NCBI GenBank assembly: GCA_043817315.1
Contig: JBDRGY010000001.1
Location: 9,732-73,731 of the forward strand
DNA from: Patescibacteria group bacterium
Lineage (GTDB): Bacteria > Patescibacteriota > Patescibacteriia > JBDRGY01
Reading direction: 5' to 3'
DNA length: 64,000 nucleotides
Shown: positions 1-52,380 of the stretch, in pieces
Layout: each line of letters starts with the position of its first letter
How positions within the stretch are numbered: position 1 is the first letter of the stretch
Made by a program: the position numbers and the translations under genes
Notes under the pieces: generated by a model
Database searches by the model: none
What the model saw: only the letters and a program-made list of their open reading frames with translations
What the model was told of the DNA's origin: nothing

Positions 1-2
1 CC

Positions 3-209
3 ATTGCCAAAGCGGAAGAACACCACGAAGAAAGATACAAGAAACTGCTGAAAATTGTAGAAAATGGTACTGCCTTCAAGAAAGCTAAAGAAGTTTGGTG
101 GGTCTGTCGGGAATGCGGCTATGTTCATTTCGGAAACGAAGCTCCAAAGGTCTGTCCTTCCTGTGATCACGAGCAAGCTTTCTACATGCTTAAGTGCGAA
201 GAGTATTAG
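3..209 (+). CDS. rubrerythrin, C-terminal part (5' partial); ends with rubredoxin-like CxxC..CxxC domain
   Basis: Frame-3 translation gives ...EEHHEERYKKLLK...WVCRECGYVHFGNEAPKVCPSCDHEQAFY*. This is ferritin-like ExxH followed by a C-terminal rubredoxin fold, typical of rubrerythrin. Confidence 0.6.
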   Translation: MAKAEEHHEERYKKLLKIVENGTAFKKAKEVWWVCRECGYVHFGNEAPKVCPSCDHEQAFYMLKCEEY

Positions 210-25485: not shown

Positions 25486-26593
25486 TTATAGTTCCTACAT
25501 TTTACCTTTTGGCCTGGGAGTAGTTTTTGCAGTTATCTTTACCCTGGTAATCAAGAAAGTTGCTAATCAATGGCAAATTGTCGATCGGCCAGAAACTGAC
25601 CCAGCCAGAAAGATTCAGGATAAACCAACTCCTCTTTTGGGCGGCCTGGCTATCTATCTAGCCTTTTTAGTTGTGATCTTAATCTACGCCCTGGGCACTG
25701 ATCGCTTGTTCGGAGGATACTTCTTGCCTAAACATCTGGCGGGTCTTCTCCTGGCCGGTTTCTTTATAATGATTGGTGGCTTTTTGGATGATCGGTTTGA
25801 CCTTAAGCCCAAAAAGCAAATTATCTGGCCCCTATTGGCTGCTCTATCCATCATTGCGGCCGGCATCGGCATTAGTTACGTTACCAACCCCCTAGGCGGC
25901 ACCCTATATTTGGATCAGATAAAAATCAAACTTTTTAGTTTGGGAGATACTCCCTACAATTTTATCCTCTGGGCGGATATTTTTGCCCTGTTGTGGTTAC
26001 TGGGCATGATGTATACCACCAAGTTTTTAGACGGACTGGACGGATTGGTGGCCGGAATCAGCACCATTGGCGCTTTCATAATTTTTCTGCTCAGCCTAAA
26101 TCAAGAAGTGGCCCAGCCGGAAACCGCCTTGATCAGTATCATATTTGCGGGGGCGGCCCTGGGCTTCTTATTTTTTAATTGGCATAGGGCCAAGATATTT
26201 TTAGGCGAAGGAGGGTCACTATTTTGCGGTTTTATGCTGGGAATCCTGGCCATTATTTCCGGGGCCAAGATTGCAACAGCCTTACTGATTGTAGGAATCC
26301 CCATTTTAGACGTTATCTGGGTGGTTATCAGGAGACTATTTTTAGAAAGAAAATCACCTTTCTTTGGAGATAGTAAACATTTACATTTTCGTTTATTGGA
26401 TGCAGGACTAAGCCATCGTGGCGCTGTTTTGCTGCTTTATCTACTGACTATCATGTTCGGGATTTCCGCTCTTATCCTCAAGGGCCAGTGGAAACTATAT
26501 TCCCTGCTTATCCTGGCTGGGGTGATGATTATTATGGCCATTGTTCTGGTTTTGGCTTATCGGCGCAAGAAAGTTGACCCCGAAACAAATTAA
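25478..26593 (+). CDS. polyprenyl-phosphate N-acetylhexosamine-1-phosphate transferase (MraY/WecA family)
   Basis: About 10 TM segments and the DDRFDLKPKKQI loop, 371 aa. Whether it is the WecA or MraY subfamily cannot be decided. Confidence 0.6.
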   Translation: MLNYSSYILPFGLGVVFAVIFTLVIKKVANQWQIVDRPETDPARKIQDKPTPLLGGLAIYLAFLVVILIYALGTDRLFGGYFLPKHLAGLLLAGFFIMIGGFLDDRFDLKPKKQIIWPLLAALSIIAAGIGISYVTNPLGGTLYLDQIKIKLFSLGDTPYNFILWADIFALLWLLGMMYTTKFLDGLDGLVAGISTIGAFIIFLLSLNQEVAQPETALISIIFAGAALGFLFFNWHRAKIFLGEGGSLFCGFMLGILAIISGAKIATALLIVGIPILDVIWVVIRRLFLERKSPFFGDSKHLHFRLLDAGLSHRGAVLLLYLLTIMFGISALILKGQWKLYSLLILAGVMIIMAIVLVLAYRRKKVDPETN

Positions 26594-26606
26594 AACCTAG
26601 AAGCAT

Positions 26607-26876
26607 ATGTACTACACCTATGTATTGCTGAGCTTTAAAGACAAGAAATTCTATATTGGATATACAAATGATATTGTTAAAAGGGTCAGGAACCATAATA
26701 AGGGAAAAGTAACGTCGACGAAATACCGTCAGCCTTTAAAGCTAATATATTATGAGGCGTGTTTAAATAAAGATGATGCCATTACCAGAGAAAAATACCT
26801 GAAATCCGGAGTGGGAAAACGCTATATAAAGAATAGGCTAAAGAAGTTTCTCGACAAAAATTTGTTTCGGGGTTGA
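26607..26876 (+). CDS. small GIY-YIG nuclease-superfamily protein (YhbQ/UPF0213-like), copy 1
   Basis: YTYVLLSFKDKKFYIGYTNDIVKRVRNHNKG, 89 aa. Confidence 0.7.
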   Translation: MYYTYVLLSFKDKKFYIGYTNDIVKRVRNHNKGKVTSTKYRQPLKLIYYEACLNKDDAITREKYLKSGVGKRYIKNRLKKFLDKNLFRG

Positions 26877-29783: not shown

Positions 29784-29923
29784 AGTATTGTTTATGTTAA
29801 CAGAAAAGCAGATTATAGCAATAGCGTTATCAATAGCTTACCCACAGTGATTTTCCACAAAAAAGTGGATACTTGATTTTCTTGAAAATCCCTGTAAAAT
29901 ACTATATACTTTATAAATACTAT

Positions 29924-30023
29924 GGGTCGTTAGCTCAGTTGGTCCCTCGTTCTTGGTCTCTGACGCACCCTGCGAACTACGGGATCCCGTCCCCGCTTTT
30001 AGTGGGAGAGGGATAGAGCGCCA
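29924..30023 (+). other. disrupted duplicate of tRNA-Lys 5' part: nt 1-20 (29924-29943) + 70-nt insertion (29944-30013) + nt 21-30 tagagcgcca (30014-30023)
   Basis: The first 20 nt and the 10-nt D-stem/anticodon-stem segment are identical to the intact tRNA-Lys at 30269. They are separated by a structured 70-nt insert, ccctcg...gagggat. Confidence 0.55.
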
Positions 30024-30029
30024 TTGATA

Positions 30030-30278
30030 ATGCCCTACGTTTACATATTAAAGAGCCAAAAAGATAGAAACTTATATGTCGGGGCTACTTCTGATGTTAG
30101 AAAACGTTTCGATGAACATAATAGGGGGAGAGTGAAATCAACTAGAAATCGAAGGCCACTTGTACTAGTATATAAAGAGGAATATCGAACATTATCAGAA
30201 GCCAGAAAGAGGGAGTGGTATTTAAAACATCATCCCACGGGACAGCAATTGAAAAAGAAATTAATCATGGGTCGTTAG
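30030..30278 (+). CDS. small GIY-YIG nuclease-superfamily protein, copy 2; stop codon lies inside the tRNA-Lys 5' end
   Basis: MPYVYILKSQKDRNLYVGATSDVRKRFDEHNRG. Ends ...IMGR* with TAG at 30276-30278. Confidence 0.7.
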   Translation: MPYVYILKSQKDRNLYVGATSDVRKRFDEHNRGRVKSTRNRRPLVLVYKEEYRTLSEARKREWYLKHHPTGQQLKKKLIMGR

Positions 30279-30341
30279 CTCAGTTGGTAGAGCGCCAGCC
30301 TTTTAAGCTGGGCGTCACAGGTTCGAATCCTGTACGACCCA
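30269..30341 (+). tRNA. tRNA-Lys (anticodon TTT)
   Basis: Hand-folded cloverleaf. Acceptor gggtcgt/acgaccc, D-stem gctc/gagc, anticodon stem ccagc/gctgg with loop cTTTtaa, T-arm acagg-ttcgaat-cctgt. Confidence 0.9.
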
Positions 30342-30353
30342 CGGTCCATCTCA

Positions 30354-30443
30354 TACTGCGGCTTCCGCGTGAAAAAACAAGTTTCTCCCGCTGCAGCCTC
30401 CGCATGAGTGTACCTTTCCGAAAAATTGCACGCAATTTTTCGG
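30354..30443. promoter_or_regulatory. imperfect direct repeat (ctgcggcttccgcgtga / ctgcagcctccgcatga) followed by perfect 26-bp palindrome ccgaaaaattgc-ac-gcaatttttcgg
   Basis: Direct inspection. Lies between the tRNA-Lys and the promoter of the OMPdc-like gene. Confidence 0.45.
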
Positions 30444-30491
30444 ACAGAAGACAGACCCGAACAGGGTTTGTTTTTATTTGGGGTCCAGGGC

Positions 30492-30519
30492 TTGACAAAT
30501 TGGACCTATAGGGTAAGAT
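30492..30519 (+). promoter_or_regulatory. promoter TTGACA-16-TAAGAT for GC-rich OMPdc-like gene
   Basis: cttgacaaattggacctatagggtaagat, about 75 nt before the RBS ggaggtagcATG. Confidence 0.5.
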
Positions 30520-30595
30520 AGCTCAATTGGCTCTTTTTAGTGTTAGTTGTTGGCTGGGTCAAACGTGACCCGAAACGTGTGGCAAAGGAGGTAGC

Positions 30596-31393
30596 ATGAA
30601 GCCCGCAGACAGAGTGATGGCCAATGTTCAGGTCAGTGAGATGGGGGAGTTGATCGCCGCAGTGGATGCTCTGGGTCCCTACATCCAGACCTTCCGCATC
30701 GACACTTCGGAATCGGCGGCACTGGGGATTCCTCATGCCTTCAACGAGATCCACGAGCGGGGTCGGCAGGTCTTCTTTGACTGCCGCCTGCACGAGGATC
30801 CGGGAACCATGGCGGACACTGCCATCGAGCTGGCTCAGGCCAAGATCGCTTTCTTCAGCATCCACGCCTCAGCTGGCATGGCTGCCATGAGGGCGGCCGT
30901 GATCAACAAGGGTGACTGCAAGGTCCTGGCAGTGACTGTACCCCCGCACTTCAGCGGGACTGACTGTGAGAGGATCTACGGTGTCTCTCTGAAGACCAAG
31001 ACTATCCAGCTGGCTCATGAAGCCGAGACAGCAGGAGTGGACGGGCTGGTCTGTTCGGCGGCTCAGATGAAGATCCTTCGAGACAGCGGAGAGTTCGACG
31101 ATACCTTCATCGTGGTTACTGACATTCTGCCCAGCCCTTCGAGCGAGGAGAAGCGCAGAGGGCTGCTCAGTGCCTACGACGCCATAAGCGGCGGGGCTGA
31201 TGCCATCGTGGTTAGTCAGCTGACTGCTGATCTCTACGCGGTCGGTGCCGAGGTGACCGAAGCTGGGAGATCGGCCCTGTCCCATCTGATGGGTGCTGTG
31301 CAGCTGGGCCTCGGCGAGGTCAGCAAACGAGTCGGGCAGGCGGCTACCGGAGTTGGTAAGGCCAAGGCCAAGGTCGGCCCGGGCGAGGAGTAG
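30596..31393 (+). CDS. divergent orotidine-5'-phosphate decarboxylase-family protein (catalytic DxKxxD replaced by DCRLHE), with ~60 aa Gly/Ala/Lys-rich C-terminal tail; GC-rich
   Basis: Similarity to the PyrF motif regions: VFFDCRLHEDPGTMADT..FFSIHASAG and AETAGVDGLVCSAAQMKIL. GC content is far above the flanks. Confidence 0.55.
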   Translation: MKPADRVMANVQVSEMGELIAAVDALGPYIQTFRIDTSESAALGIPHAFNEIHERGRQVFFDCRLHEDPGTMADTAIELAQAKIAFFSIHASAGMAAMRAAVINKGDCKVLAVTVPPHFSGTDCERIYGVSLKTKTIQLAHEAETAGVDGLVCSAAQMKILRDSGEFDDTFIVVTDILPSPSSEEKRRGLLSAYDAISGGADAIVVSQLTADLYAVGAEVTEAGRSALSHLMGAVQLGLGEVSKRVGQAATGVGKAKAKVGPGEE

Positions 31394-51698: not shown

Positions 51699-52013
51699 AT
51701 GAACAATAAATTAAAAATTCAATCTGATTGTCCCTTTTGCGGGTCAGAATACGATATGCAGTCTTTGCACGTTCTTGAAGAAAGAGGCAGCGGATTCTTA
51801 GCTCATCTCAAATGTATGAACTGTCACGGTGCCGTGGTTACCTTAGTTTCCATGAGTCCGCTGGGCGGTCTGCTGGTAACCGGAGTAGCTACTGACTTGC
51901 AGGAGAGCGAGGTTCTGGGATTTGAAAAAGGGGAAGAGGTTAGTTATGACGACGTAATAAATATTCACGGGCTTTTAGAAAATAACGGGGAGTTGTTTAT
52001 TGATGTGAATTAA
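51699..52013 (+). CDS. hypothetical Zn-ribbon protein (CPFCG...CMNCHG)
   Basis: ORF with probable ATG start MNNKLKIQSDCPFCG. The track ORF begins at a TTG at 51651. Confidence 0.4.
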   Translation: MNNKLKIQSDCPFCGSEYDMQSLHVLEERGSGFLAHLKCMNCHGAVVTLVSMSPLGGLLVTGVATDLQESEVLGFEKGEEVSYDDVINIHGLLENNGELFIDVN

Positions 52014-52300
52014 TGAAAGAAAAAACGTACTACGTTTACATGTTATCTAATAAAAGGAAGAATGTTCTTTACACGGGAATTACTGGAAATTTGGAAGGAA
52101 GAGTTAGAGAGCACAAGAATAAGTTAGTTATGGGGTTTACCAGTAAGTATAATGTTGATCTATTGGTGTATTACGAGGAATATAATGATGTTTATGATGC
52201 GATTGCAAGGGAAAAGCAGATAAAGGGATGGTTGCGTAGCAAAAAGGATCAATTGATTAATAAACTAAATCCTAAATGGAAAGATTTGAGCGAAGGATAA
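52013..52300 (+). CDS. small GIY-YIG nuclease-superfamily protein, copy 3
   Basis: TYYVYMLSNKRKNVLYTGITGNLEGRVREHKN. The ATG overlaps the upstream stop (TAATGA). Confidence 0.7.
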   Translation: MKEKTYYVYMLSNKRKNVLYTGITGNLEGRVREHKNKLVMGFTSKYNVDLLVYYEEYNDVYDAIAREKQIKGWLRSKKDQLINKLNPKWKDLSEG

Positions 52301-52380
52301 AATATATAGTATTGTCATTCTGAATAAAGTGAAGAATCTCGATAAGTAACGAGATCCTTCGCTCCTCTCAGGATGACAGT
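52283..52380 (+). promoter_or_regulatory. complex stem-loop region with mutually exclusive pairings between GIY-YIG 3' end and dnaK
   Basis: gagcgaagga (52285-94) pairs with tccttcgctc (52357-66). Competing with this, tgtcattctga (52312-22) pairs with tcaggatgaca (52370-80), enclosing gaagaatctcg/cgagatccttc. Confidence 0.4.

What the first reader, a model, noticed from the sequence alone, without database searches (positions are those of the whole stretch)
29924..30341. tRNA-Lys locus remodelled by a GIY-YIG gene: disrupted duplicate of the tRNA 5' 30 nt upstream, gene stop codon inside the intact tRNA
The intact tRNA-Lys (30269-30341) is preceded by a GIY-YIG ORF whose last codons (atg ggt cgt TAG) are the first 10 nt of the tRNA. 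Upstream of that ORF lies a second copy of tRNA nt 1-20 (29924-43), then a structured 70-nt insert, then tRNA nt 21-30 (tagagcgcca, 30014-23). A duplicated 5' tRNA segment flanking an inserted gene is the footprint expected from site-specific insertion into a tRNA gene with regeneration of the target. The extra 70-nt insert in the D-loop of the remnant copy is unexplained.
Basis: seen in the sequence. Interest (0 to 1): 0.7.

Follow-up and report, generated by a model that had tools for sequence, protein, structure and literature searches.

The report
Nuclease gene nested in tRNA-Lys gene
A tiny nuclease gene sits between a broken copy and an intact copy of a tRNA-Lys gene, and the same layout recurs next to many different tRNA genes across bacterial phyla, which points to a widespread family of very small selfish DNA cassettes that I could not find described in the literature available to me.

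Summary
AT plus tRNA-Lys(UUU) nt 1-19 (29922-29942) and nt 20-29 (30014-30023) are exact copies of the 5' part of the intact tRNA (30269-30341). A 71-nt GC-rich insert separates them. An 82-aa GIY-YIG ORF (30030-30278) follows and stops at the tRNA's U8-A9-G10.

The locus is one member of a stereotyped class. Of 80 homologous loci from many phyla, 58 have a tRNA within 300 nt, always on the same strand. Most carry an ORF-distal partial copy of that tRNA, interrupted by GC-rich palindromic hairpins. The unexplained 70-nt insert is two tandem copies of this clade's hairpin module.

Orthologous loci show the element intact except for a frameshift (L128), decayed (L129-131) or absent (L133, an empty site). 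The partial copy lies where the tRNA lies in the empty-site relative, behind the only promoter-like site. The ORF is under purifying selection (dN/dS 0.17). Its model resembles UPF0213 proteins and Slx1 more than I-TevI.

Best reading: a selfish cassette that nests in a tRNA gene without destroying it. How it moves is inferred, not shown. Seven literature searches found no description.

The parts
29882..29910 (+). Promoter-like site TTGAAA-17-TATACT. This is the native tRNA promoter and now the only promoter-like site upstream of the whole cassette and the intact tRNA.
   Evidence: 10/12 match; no other + strand site before 30492. It is 83% identical in L128. By eye, the empty-site relative L133 has TTGACA-16-TACTAT 13 nt before its intact tRNA-Lys.
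29922..29942 (+). Relic or duplicate of the tRNA 5' end: AT plus tRNA-Lys nt 1-19.
   Evidence: It is part of the exact 22-nt repeat. It is 19/19 identical in L128, while the adjacent leader is 54% and the insert 68% identical.
29943..29984 (-). Hairpin module 1 of the 71-nt insert. On the minus strand it reads TCCCGT...CGAGGGA, so it is the module in inverted orientation.
   Evidence: Its junction with module 2 forms the palindrome ACGGGA|TCCCGT. CGGGATCCCG occurs once, beside or within ~25 nt of the GIY-YIG ORF, in 12 related loci.
29985..30013 (+). Hairpin module 2 (TCCCGT-CCCCGC-TTTTA-GTGGG-AGAGGGA). It is homologous to the L128 and L082 modules.
   Evidence: L128 has CCCCGCcaaaaGCGGGG and L082 has GGTCGCttatGGCGACC between the same TCCCGT...GAGGGA termini, so the inner stem differs but stays complementary.
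30014..30023 (+). Continuation of the relic copy: tRNA-Lys nt 20-29 (TAGAGCGCCA).
   Evidence: Exact 10-nt repeat of 30288-30297. TAGAGC is retained in L128.
30030..30278 (+). GIY-YIG nuclease ORF of 82 aa (an in-frame TTG at 30024 would give 84 aa). It is a stand-alone UPF0213/Slx1-like catalytic domain. Its last 10 nt, including the stop codon TAG, are tRNA nt 1-10.
   Evidence: Pfam E=1.3e-16. PDB sequence matches 1YWL and 1ZG2. AF2 pLDDT 93.7. Foldseek hits UPF0213, then Slx1 at TM 0.66-0.72, against I-TevI at 0.47. dN/dS against L128 is 0.17.
30269..30341 (+). Intact tRNA-Lys(UUU), the functional copy.
   Evidence: ARAGORN. Rfam 75.3 bits. 73/73 identical in L128 and conserved in L129-131.

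Best explanation
The locus holds a resident copy of a small selfish cassette, about 350 bp, that nests inside tRNA genes without inactivating them.

Layout. The native promoter and the first 29 nt of the original tRNA-Lys gene remain upstream as a relic. Two GC-rich palindromic hairpin modules interrupt the relic at the D-loop. An 82-aa stand-alone GIY-YIG nuclease gene follows. A complete tRNA-Lys comes next, and its first 10 nt supply the last codons and the stop codon of the nuclease gene.

Shown:
- The architecture, and its recurrence at many tRNAs in many phyla.
- Its absence at the orthologous site of a relative, and its decay in others.
- Purifying selection on the ORF.
- Co-inheritance of hairpin type with nuclease clade.
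- The hairpins are Watson-Crick palindromes with no strand bias.

Inferred:
- The ORF and the tRNA are co-transcribed from the tRNA promoter. RNase P cleavage at tRNA +1 would then remove the stop codon from the mRNA and keep nuclease expression low.
- The cassette spreads by recombination between the tRNA sequences that flank the ORF (its homology arms) and an intact tRNA gene. This would explain why related nucleases stay with the same tRNA type.
- The Slx1-like, probably structure-specific, nuclease promotes this by cutting hairpin or branched DNA. Candidates are the palindromic modules themselves or the hairpin-forming tRNA gene.
- The hairpin modules interrupt the direct repeat. That would hinder loss of the cassette by repeat recombination, and/or it would mark the nuclease's site of action.
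For: Window anatomy.

Generality:
- 58/80 genome loci with a homologue have a tRNA within 300 nt, and 58/58 are on the same strand. Background tRNA density is 0.044 per kb.
- 31/48 loci with the tRNA downstream have an exact copy of >=12 nt of that tRNA's 5' part in the 200-nt leader, against 1/83 control regions.
- 10/20 loci with the tRNA upstream have >=15-nt copies of the tRNA 3' part after the ORF, against 1/34 controls.
- The ORF stop lies inside the tRNA in 27/51 loci, and at U8A9G10 in 13.
- The relic copies are interrupted precisely, without duplication, by GC-rich palindromes. An example is CCTGCCTGCCGGCAGGCAGG in about 10 loci from different phyla.

Orthologous sites:
- L128 has the same cassette.
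- L129-131 retain only the last ~70 nt of the ORF.
- L133 is empty.
- L032 lacks the ORF-less units that its close relative L036 carries.

Selection: dN/dS is 0.17. pS is 0.44, against 0.60-0.84 for five neighbouring genes. The relic is 19/19 conserved while the insert is 68% identical.

Unit character: flanks share GC-rich non-tRNA 9-mers in 3% of protein pairs below 30% identity, rising to 51% of pairs at 60-80% identity.

Target fidelity: the nearest-neighbour protein sits at the same tRNA amino-acid type in 36/72 cases, against 5.0+-2.6 expected. This holds across 5'-side and 3'-side arrangements, for example L031/L073 and L048/L054.

Displaced copies that look foreign or older:
- L002 and L075 relics have different acceptor strands from the resident tRNA.
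- In L084-86 the displaced C-terminal copy of a protein gene visibly differs from the intact one.

Nuclease type.

DNA-level palindromes: the sense strand folds better in 10 inserts, the antisense in 19, and they are equal in 18. G-U pairs number 16 against 22.
Against: - No cleavage or mobility has been shown.
- An 82-aa catalytic domain has no DNA-binding module. How it finds tRNA genes is unknown.
- The intact tRNA copy still contains any target that lies within the duplicated segment, so self-cleavage is unexplained.
- In about 10 loci the duplication includes 2-5 species-specific nucleotides upstream of tRNA +1. This points to duplication made in place rather than arms imported from a foreign donor, and it fits simple homing poorly.
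- About 10 nt of tRNA sequence regularly lie between the last hairpin and the ORF. The model does not explain this.
- At this locus the element has been inherited vertically for a long time and kept under purifying selection. That also fits a host-beneficial role.
- The low pS rests on only 48 synonymous sites.
Confidence: 0.6

Rival explanations
1. Hairpin-targeting mini-transposon. The true mobile unit is a palindrome-bounded module (TCCC...GGGA, CCTGCC...GGCAGG or CCCCGTTAG...CTAACGGGG). It occurs with the GIY-YIG ORF in its loop (autonomous, about 300 bp) or without it (MITE-like, 15-70 bp). The nuclease acts like a transposase on folded or cruciform DNA and inserts modules into the loops of other hairpins, including the D, anticodon and T loops of tRNA genes. 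The tRNA duplications are secondary rescue events.
For: - More than 20 loci have the ORF snugly enclosed by 12-24 nt inverted repeats whose right arm encodes the ORF end. The window's own second copy, 26579-26874, is one of them.
- ORF-less modules share the termini of ORF-bearing modules in the same clade, for example L092 and L083 against the window insert.
- Modules nest inside each other's loops (L010, L036) and occur in tandem (window, L082).
- Insert positions lie in tRNA loops and share no sequence consensus.
- The fold is closest to the structure-specific nuclease Slx1.
- The palindromes show no strand bias.
Against: - In the window-type arrangement the ORF is not enclosed by inverted repeats.
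- A systematic test for target-site duplications was negative or inconclusive. Only a few 4-nt cases appeared: TTGA in the window copy, CAGG in L043 and TGAA in L067.
- GIY-YIG enzymes hydrolyse DNA and are not known to perform strand transfer.
- The stereotyped duplication, running from about -4 to about 10 nt past the last hairpin, looks deterministic rather than a random rescue.
- The module is not dispersed elsewhere in the 64-kb window.
Confidence: 0.2
2. RNA-level function. The leader transcript, made of a tRNA 5' fragment, hairpins and a further tRNA fragment, is a functional RNA. It could be a guide or scaffold that directs the nuclease to intact tRNA genes by base pairing, by analogy with IscB/TnpB omega-RNAs whose guides derive from flanking DNA. 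It could instead be a regulatory tRNA-mimic leader.
For: - The relic always lies on the ORF strand and in the same transcription unit. It is 5' of the ORF in the window type and 3' of it in the mirrored type.
- It is 19/19 conserved between the window and L128 although its flanks diverged.
- The hairpin inner stems differ between relatives but keep their complementarity.
- The relic is degraded in the lineage that lost the ORF.
Against: - The hairpins show no sense-strand bias and few G-U pairs, which is unlike typical functional RNA helices.
- No Rfam family matches.
- The window's own insert is partly degenerate, with z=-0.9.
- In protein-gene cases the displaced copy visibly differs from the resident gene, so it could not guide cleavage of that gene.
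- Gene conversion from the adjacent tRNA could equally keep the relic identical.
Confidence: 0.07
3. Host-beneficial (domesticated) gene. The small GIY-YIG protein serves the cell, for example in repair or maintenance of highly transcribed, hairpin-prone tRNA genes, or in defence. It is simply co-expressed with tRNAs, and the duplications are by-products.
For: - dN/dS is 0.17, and the element has persisted vertically at this site across relatives with 88% DnaB identity.
- The family is very large: 6,931 clusters at E<=1e-3.
- There are three paralogues within 64 kb of a reduced Patescibacteria genome.
Against: - Presence is patchy at orthologous sites, with frameshift and deletion in close relatives.
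- Targets include unrelated protein genes with displaced termini.
- There are ORF-less tandem derivatives.
- Only weak partial hits to defence models were found.
- The ORF lacks its own stop codon and a well-placed ribosome-binding site.
Confidence: 0.08
4. A conventional explanation. Either this is the remnant of an integrase-mediated genomic island inserted at a tRNA gene, or it is a tRNA gene interrupted by a self-splicing intron that carries a homing endonuclease.
For: tRNA genes are classic integration sites, and direct repeats of tRNA sequence flank islands. Group I introns in bacterial tRNA genes can carry GIY-YIG ORFs (established knowledge).
Against: - Only 345 bp lie between the repeats, and there is no integrase.
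- The repeat is of the 5' end, not the 3' end.
- There is no group I or group II intron signal at E<=10.
- ARAGORN intron modes find nothing extra.
- The downstream tRNA is complete and needs no splicing.
Confidence: 0.02

Closest known systems
Free-standing GIY-YIG homing endonuclease genes of phages, e.g. T4 SegB in the tRNA gene cluster (PMC2330249)
   Same: A GIY-YIG nuclease gene sits among or next to tRNA genes. It is inherited preferentially by break-induced gene conversion together with flanking DNA. Its presence is patchy among relatives.
   Different: SegB-type enzymes are over 200 aa and have DNA-binding modules, and they are phage-borne. Here the protein is a bare 82-aa catalytic domain closer to UPF0213 and Slx1. 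It lies in cellular chromosomes, with only 2 relatives in 2.9 million viral contigs. It is flanked by a duplicated target segment and hairpin modules.
Mobile endonuclease ORFs of fungal mitochondria that bring a replacement copy of a gene end and displace the native end (Allomyces atp6 case, own knowledge), together with mobile GC-rich double-hairpin elements (Paquin et al. 2000, cited in PMC3787672)
   Same: The ORF lies between an intact gene and a displaced partial copy of that gene's terminus. The two copies can differ in sequence (L084-86, L033/L051). GC-rich hairpin elements accompany the ORFs.
   Different: Those cases are in organelles and involve protein-coding targets, usually 3' ends. 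Here the setting is bacterial chromosomes, the targets are mostly tRNA genes, the duplication is mostly of the 5' end, the ORF reads into the tRNA, and the hairpins sit precisely inside the displaced copy.
REP/RAYT (REPIN) systems
   Same: A single small nuclease-type gene is associated with short GC-rich palindromic modules. The modules also occur without the gene, in tandem or inverted pairs, and co-evolve with it.
   Different: RAYTs are HUH/Y1 transposase relatives, and REPs are dispersed in hundreds of intergenic copies. Here the enzyme is GIY-YIG. The modules were seen only beside the ORFs and inside tRNA relics. Genome-wide dispersal was not tested.
Integrative elements that target tRNA genes and regenerate them (tyrosine-integrase islands and prophages)
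   Same: The insertion leaves the tRNA functional because the element supplies a copy of the displaced tRNA segment. The element is flanked by a direct repeat of tRNA sequence.
   Different: Those elements are kilobases long, encode an integrase and duplicate the 3' part. This one is about 350 bp, has no recombinase, duplicates the 5' part and separates the tRNA from its promoter.
IS200/IS605-family elements with TnpB/IscB and flank-derived guide RNAs
   Same: They are compact elements with subterminal hairpins. Target-derived sequence lies next to a structured segment and a nuclease gene in one transcript. The nuclease is proposed to favour retention or homing rather than to catalyse transposition.
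   Different: There is no TnpA, TnpB or IscB here. The hairpins show no RNA-strand bias. No evidence for RNA guidance was found.
UPF0213 (YhbQ/COG2827-type) stand-alone GIY-YIG proteins and the Slx1 nuclease domain
   Same: These are the best sequence and fold matches: 1YWL and 1ZG2 at E 2e-7 and 2e-6, and Slx1 at TM 0.66-0.72. The catalytic Tyr/Tyr/Arg/His/Glu positions are conserved.
   Different: UPF0213 proteins have no established function, and I found no description of a tRNA-linked, duplicated-target context. Slx1 works with Slx4 and a RING domain, which are absent here.

Membership tests
GIY-YIG nuclease superfamily (Pfam PF01541) | Sequence match to the GIY-YIG catalytic domain above the curated cut-off | tested here: met
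   61.1 bits against a cut-off of 22.6, E=1.3e-16.
GIY-YIG nuclease superfamily (Pfam PF01541) | Beta-beta-alpha-beta-alpha core fold with conserved Tyr, Tyr, Arg, His/Tyr and Glu | tested here: met
   The AF2 model has pLDDT 93.7 with E3-9, E15-20, H23-31, E44-51 and H55-67. Y5, Y16, G18, R26, H30 and E62 are invariant in alignment A1. Foldseek hits GIY-YIG structures only.
UPF0213 / YhbQ-type stand-alone GIY-YIG proteins | A single-domain protein of about 80-110 aa with significant similarity to UPF0213 members | tested here: met
   1YWL at E=2.2e-7 and 1ZG2 at E=2e-6. 1ZG2 is the top Foldseek hit. Homologues are mostly 80-130 aa.
Homing endonuclease genes (I-TevI / Seg type) | A nuclease domain joined to a sequence-specific DNA-binding domain that recognises a long target | tested here: not met
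   The protein is 82 aa and consists of the GIY-YIG domain alone. The NCBIfam group I intron endonuclease model scores 21 bits against a cut-off of 56. The I-TevI fold match is weaker than the Slx1 match.
Homing endonuclease genes (I-TevI / Seg type) | Presence/absence polymorphism at the same conserved site, with signs of the invasion, decay and loss cycle | tested here: met
   L133 is empty, L128 is frameshifted and L129-131 are deleted. L032 and L036 differ in the same way. L128 lacks the window's second copy.
Homing endonuclease genes (I-TevI / Seg type) | Cleavage of the empty allele and gene conversion into it | not testable with these tools
   This requires biochemistry or genetics.
Integrase-mediated tRNA-targeting island | A tyrosine or serine recombinase gene within the element, and a direct repeat of the tRNA 3' segment | tested here: not met
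   The 345 bp between the repeats hold only the GIY-YIG ORF. The repeat is of tRNA nt 1-29.
Group I (or II) intron in a tRNA gene | A ribozyme core detectable by covariance model, and a tRNA that is intact only after splicing | tested here: not met
   No intron family matched at E<=10. The downstream tRNA is complete as encoded. ARAGORN intron modes add nothing.
REP/RAYT-like palindrome-plus-nuclease systems | A HUH/Y1 (TnpA_REP) enzyme, with palindromes dispersed genome-wide | tested here: not met
   The enzyme is GIY-YIG. The module was not found elsewhere in the 64-kb window. Whole-genome dispersal was not testable.
Known anti-phage defence systems (PADLOC) | Full-length match to a defence protein model | tested here: not met
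   Only partial hits of 13-18 bits to much longer models.

The most novel reading that the evidence does not exclude
Stand-alone UPF0213-type GIY-YIG genes and their clade-specific GC-rich palindromic modules form a previously unrecognised class of minimal autonomous mobile elements of about 300-350 bp, smaller than any known insertion sequence. In this reading they colonise hairpin-forming DNA, such as tRNA genes, terminators and other palindromes, in many bacterial phyla. A structure-specific, Slx1-like nuclease would drive them. Target choice would be set by flanking homology arms or hairpin loops rather than by a DNA-binding domain, and the tRNA gene would be kept alive by a built-in duplication. 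A still bolder variant is that the tRNA-fragment/hairpin leader acts as a guide RNA.
Probability: 0.35. Interest if true: 0.85.

Novelty: new variant of a known kind. Interest (0 to 1): 0.75.

Why it matters
- It would give a biological role to a very large family of function-unknown proteins, the UPF0213 stand-alone GIY-YIG proteins (6,931 clusters at 50% identity).
- It would show that bacterial chromosomal tRNA genes are colonised by nuclease cassettes far smaller than any known insertion sequence.
- It would explain a recurrent annotation oddity: partial tRNA copies, GC-rich palindromes and small ORFs that overlap tRNA genes.
- The design is unusual. The cassette takes over the tRNA promoter, borrows the tRNA's invariant U8-A9-G10 as its stop codon, and keeps the target functional by duplicating its 5' end.
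- If the nuclease is structure-specific and homology arms determine the target, the system is a natural, minimal, programmable gene-insertion device.

Tried and rejected
- Rfam. At gathering thresholds on the window and on 20 related loci, and at E<=10 on the locus, only tRNAs matched. No family covers the leader or the insert.
- Intron reading. ARAGORN with intron options found no extra tRNA.
- Folding. The 100-nt relic plus insert folds no better than shuffles. The insert alone gives z=-0.9.
- Insert copies. No other copy of the 70-nt insert exists in the window. Its terminal motif occurs no more often than chance outside the locus.
- Target-site duplications. A systematic search around inverted-repeat-bounded ORFs was inconclusive, with only a few 4-nt cases.
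- Gapped alignment of leaders to tRNAs. Cheap gaps over-fitted the data. I replaced it with an exact-match test with controls.
- Strand bias of hairpins as a test for RNA function. None favoured the sense strand.
- Phage carriage. There are 2 relatives in 2.9 million viral contigs.
- Defence-system membership. Only weak partial hits.
- Synteny search. L132 (75% DnaB identity) has lost the arrangement.
- Literature. Seven full-text searches, including the palindrome sequence itself, found no description of tRNA-nested UPF0213/GIY-YIG cassettes. Subscription-only literature was not covered.
- A tRNA-like fragment at 30510-30531. I judged it to be chance.
Full report
**1. The observation**

The sequence and the repeat finder confirm two exact repeats.
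- A 22-nt direct repeat, ATGGGTCGTTAGCTCAGTTGGT, lies at 29922-29943 and 30267-30288.
- A 10-nt repeat, TAGAGCGCCA, lies at 30014-30023 and 30288-30297.

Together they equal AT plus nt 1-29 of the intact tRNA-Lys(UUU) at 30269-30341. ARAGORN calls that tRNA, and Rfam scores it 75 bits. One T is shared between the two repeats in the intact tRNA. The upstream insert is therefore 70 or 71 nt. I place it at 29943-30013 because that gives the closing stem TCCCTC/GAGGGA.

The ORF from 30030 to 30278 encodes 82 aa and matches Pfam GIY-YIG at E=1.3e-16. Its last four codons, ATG GGT CGT TAG, are AT plus tRNA nt 1-10. Neither ARAGORN, with or without intron modes, nor Rfam at E<=10 sees a tRNA or an intron in the upstream copy.

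The window comes from a Patescibacteria MAG. The protein is 100% identical to an NCBI entry on a 321-kb contig.

**2. The locus is one instance of a general architecture**

The closest homologue (P0002, 67% identity) ends 7 nt before a tRNA-Ala.

A scan of one genome per species returned the best 80 of at least 435 loci that encode relatives. They come from Patescibacteria, Bacteroidota, Planctomycetota, Nitrospirota, Gammaproteobacteria, Ignavibacteria and others.
- 58 of the 80 loci have a tRNA gene within 300 nt, and all 58 are on the ORF strand.
- tRNA density elsewhere in the same loci is 0.044 per kb, so about 3 loci would be expected by chance.
- Many tRNA species are involved.

Loci with the tRNA downstream of the ORF:
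- In 31 of 48 unique loci, the 200 nt upstream of the ORF contain an exact copy of >=12 nt of that tRNA's 5' part. The control figure is 1 of 83 regions.
- Several of the remaining loci have shorter pieces because more inserts split the copy.
- The ORF stop lies inside the tRNA in 27 of 51 loci, and at the invariant U8-A9-G10 in 13.

Mirror-image loci, with the order tRNA, ORF, then partial 3' copy of the tRNA:
- 10 of 20 have copies of >=15 nt, against 1 of 34 controls.

Loci with other layouts:
- The ORF lies between an intact protein gene and a displaced copy of that gene's 5' end (L033, L051) or 3' end (L084-86).
- The ORF sits in the loop of a 12-24 nt inverted repeat. The window's own second copy, at 26579-26874, is of this kind.

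**3. The 'unexplained' insert**

In nearly all loci the displaced tRNA copy is interrupted by one or more GC-rich palindromic hairpins. The interruption is precise, with no loss or duplication of tRNA nucleotides. The hairpins lie in the D-loop (most often), after nt 9, in the anticodon loop or in the T-loop.

- The commonest hairpin is the perfect palindrome CCTGCCTGCCGGCAGGCAGG. It occurs in about ten loci from different phyla.
- Other protein clades have other hairpin types.
- Hairpin type follows protein clade. Flanks share GC-rich non-tRNA 9-mers in 3% of protein pairs below 30% identity, rising to 51% of pairs at 60-80% identity. The hairpins therefore belong to the element.

The window's insert consists of two tandem modules of its clade's type (TCCC...GGGA).
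- One module (29943-29984) is inverted, and the other (29985-30013) is direct.
- Their junction makes the palindrome ACGGGA|TCCCGT. CGGGATCCCG occurs once, beside or within ~25 nt of the ORF, in 12 related loci.
- Module 2 has the same TCCCGT...GAGGGA termini as modules in L128 and L082. The inner stems differ but remain complementary.
- The window's copy is partly degenerate (z=-0.9), whereas the L128 orthologue folds well (z=-2.9).

Across 47 curated inserts there is no sense-strand advantage. The sense strand folds better in 10, the antisense in 19, and they are equal in 18. G-U pairs number 16 against 22. The inserts behave as DNA palindromes rather than as RNA-only helices.

**4. History at this site**

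DnaB homologues led to the orthologous loci.

| Relative | DnaB identity | State of the site |
|---|---|---|
| L128 | 88% | Same cassette. The ORF is open except for a one-base change in an A-run. |
| L129-131 | 86% | A few nt of the relic, a different hairpin, only the last ~70 nt of the ORF, and the intact tRNA. |
| L133 | 74% | Same divergent dnaB/tRNA-Lys arrangement. A promoter precedes an intact tRNA. No ORF and no relic. |
| L132 | 75% | The arrangement is lost. |

In the window the relic lies 13 nt after the only promoter-like site, TTGAAA-17-TATACT. This is the same distance as in L133. The relic therefore occupies the native position, and the intact tRNA must be transcribed through the cassette.

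Identity between the window and L128, by segment:

| Segment | Identity |
|---|---|
| Relic (tRNA nt 1-19) | 19/19 |
| Leader | 54% |
| Insert | 68% |
| ORF (nucleotides) | 83% |
| tRNA | 73/73 |

The ORF has dN/dS 0.17. Its pS is 0.44, against 0.60-0.84 for five neighbouring genes. This shows purifying selection. Weakly, because only 48 synonymous sites are involved, it also suggests a younger age than the split between the two hosts.

Presence/absence between close relatives is also seen in two other places.
- ORF-less tandem units are present in L036 and absent in L032.
- The window's second copy is absent in L128.

**5. The protein**

- Its closest sequences with solved structures are the function-unknown UPF0213 proteins 1YWL and 1ZG2.
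- The AF2 model (pLDDT 93.7) matches UPF0213 and the Slx1 nuclease domain (TM 0.66-0.72, rmsd 1.6-3.9 A). Both matches are better than the match to I-TevI (TM 0.47).
- There is no DNA-binding domain.
- The family has 6,931 clusters at 50% identity with E<=1e-3. Nearly all members are 80-130 aa.
- The family is almost absent from viral contigs, and it matches no defence model.

**6. Target fidelity**

The nearest-neighbour protein sits at a tRNA of the same amino-acid type in 36 of 72 cases, against 5.0+-2.6 expected. This holds across phyla and across 5'-side and 3'-side arrangements.

Exceptions are clades whose hairpins lie in sequences shared by many tRNAs.
- The T-loop in L087-L101.
- The GCTCAGTTGGTAGAGC-type D-arm for the window (Lys), L001 (Ala) and L082 (Ile).

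The protein has no recognition domain. This fidelity is therefore most simply explained by the tRNA copies that flank the ORF acting as homology arms. That is an inference.

**7. Mechanism**

I commit to a selfish cassette that nests in the tRNA gene, keeps it functional by duplicating its 5' part, and is expressed from the tRNA promoter. I give this 0.6 for the full statement. The core part, that the locus belongs to a tRNA-nesting cassette family created by insertion with duplication, I rate about 0.85.

Inferred steps:
- RNase P processing would strip the stop codon from the mRNA.
- The cassette spreads by recombination through its arms.
- The nuclease stimulates this by cutting hairpin or branched DNA.
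- The hairpins break up the direct repeat, and/or they mark the site of action.

Unresolved points:
- The intact copy should still be a target.
- The duplication includes 2-5 species-specific nucleotides upstream of +1 in about ten loci, which suggests duplication in place.
- About 10 nt of tRNA sequence regularly separate the last hairpin from the ORF.

Rival explanations and my probabilities:

| Rival | Probability |
|---|---|
| Hairpin-targeting mini-transposon | 0.2 |
| RNA guide or regulatory leader | 0.07 |
| Domesticated host function | 0.08 |
| Integrase island or intron | 0.02 |

**8. Comparison and novelty**

The logic resembles several known systems.
- Free-standing homing endonuclease genes such as T4 SegB (PMC2330249).
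- Fungal mitochondrial mobile ORFs that displace gene termini and travel with GC-rich double-hairpin elements (own knowledge; Paquin 2000 as cited in PMC3787672).
- REP/RAYT systems, for the pairing of a palindrome with a nuclease-type gene.

The locus fails the defining tests for I-TevI-type enzymes (no DNA-binding domain), integrase islands, introns and RAYTs.

Seven full-text searches found no description of this arrangement. I rate it a new variant of a known kind, with a substantial chance that it represents a new class of minimal mobile element.

Noticed in passing
window 26579-26874: A second small GIY-YIG ORF (26607-26876, 89 aa, 42% identical) lies between an mraY-like gene and rplU. 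It is enclosed by 14-16 nt inverted repeats (CCCCGAAACAAATT / AATTTGTTTCGGGG). The left arm supplies the last codons and stop of the mraY-like gene. The ORF's TGA lies in the TTGACA -35 box of the rplU promoter. TTGA is repeated on both sides. The relative L128 has the two genes adjacent, 38 nt apart, without the ORF.
   Followed up: partly
window 52013-52378: A third small GIY-YIG ORF (52013-52300, 95 aa) lies upstream of dnaK. Its ATG overlaps the stop of the preceding ORF (TAATG). A long imperfect hairpin follows at about 52312-52378 (tgtcattctga...tcaggatgaca).
   Followed up: no
window 30343-30415: A hairpin of about 70 nt lies directly 3' of tRNA-Lys. It is conserved in L128 and L129, with 7 of 25 pairs showing compensatory changes. 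No Rfam match and no known function. A second hairpin (30414-30447) and a terminator-like stem with a T-run follow it.
   Followed up: partly
window 30510-30531: GGGTAAGATAGCTCAATTGGC resembles tRNA nt 1-20 (68% to the repeat). It overlaps the promoter-like TTGACA-16-TAAGAT of the OMP-decarboxylase-like gene and is not conserved in L129. It is probably a chance resemblance.
   Followed up: partly
L036 1935-2400 versus L032 2380-2480: Upstream of an intact tRNA-Arg(CCT), L036 carries at least three tandem ORF-less units. Each consists of tRNA nt -2..22, a CCTGCC...GGCAGG hairpin, nt 23..37 and a 37-nt spacer. The close relative L032 (97% identical GIY-YIG downstream of the tRNA) has none.
   Followed up: partly
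L082 1446-2030: In what looks like an rRNA-operon spacer (tRNA-Ile GAT followed by tRNA-Ala TGC), the GIY-YIG ORF and an intact tRNA-Ile are flanked on both sides by hairpin-interrupted tRNA-Ile fragments. These are nt 1-12 upstream, and nt 13-74 plus a further 3' fragment downstream.
   Followed up: partly
L042 1-140 and downstream of its ORF: There are tRNA-Asp-like sequences in which the palindrome TCCCGAGTACTCGGGA replaces parts of the anticodon and T arms. ARAGORN does not call them tRNAs.
   Followed up: no
L084-L086 (about 1440-1860 in L084): The GIY-YIG ORF start overlaps the stop of a YjbQ-like host gene (ATGA). A displaced copy of that gene's last ~25 codons, visibly different in sequence, follows the ORF and its hairpins.
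   Followed up: partly
window 30596-31393: The OMP-decarboxylase-like gene downstream is missing from the called genes of the closest relative L128. There the P-type ATPase follows the tRNA region directly.
   Followed up: no
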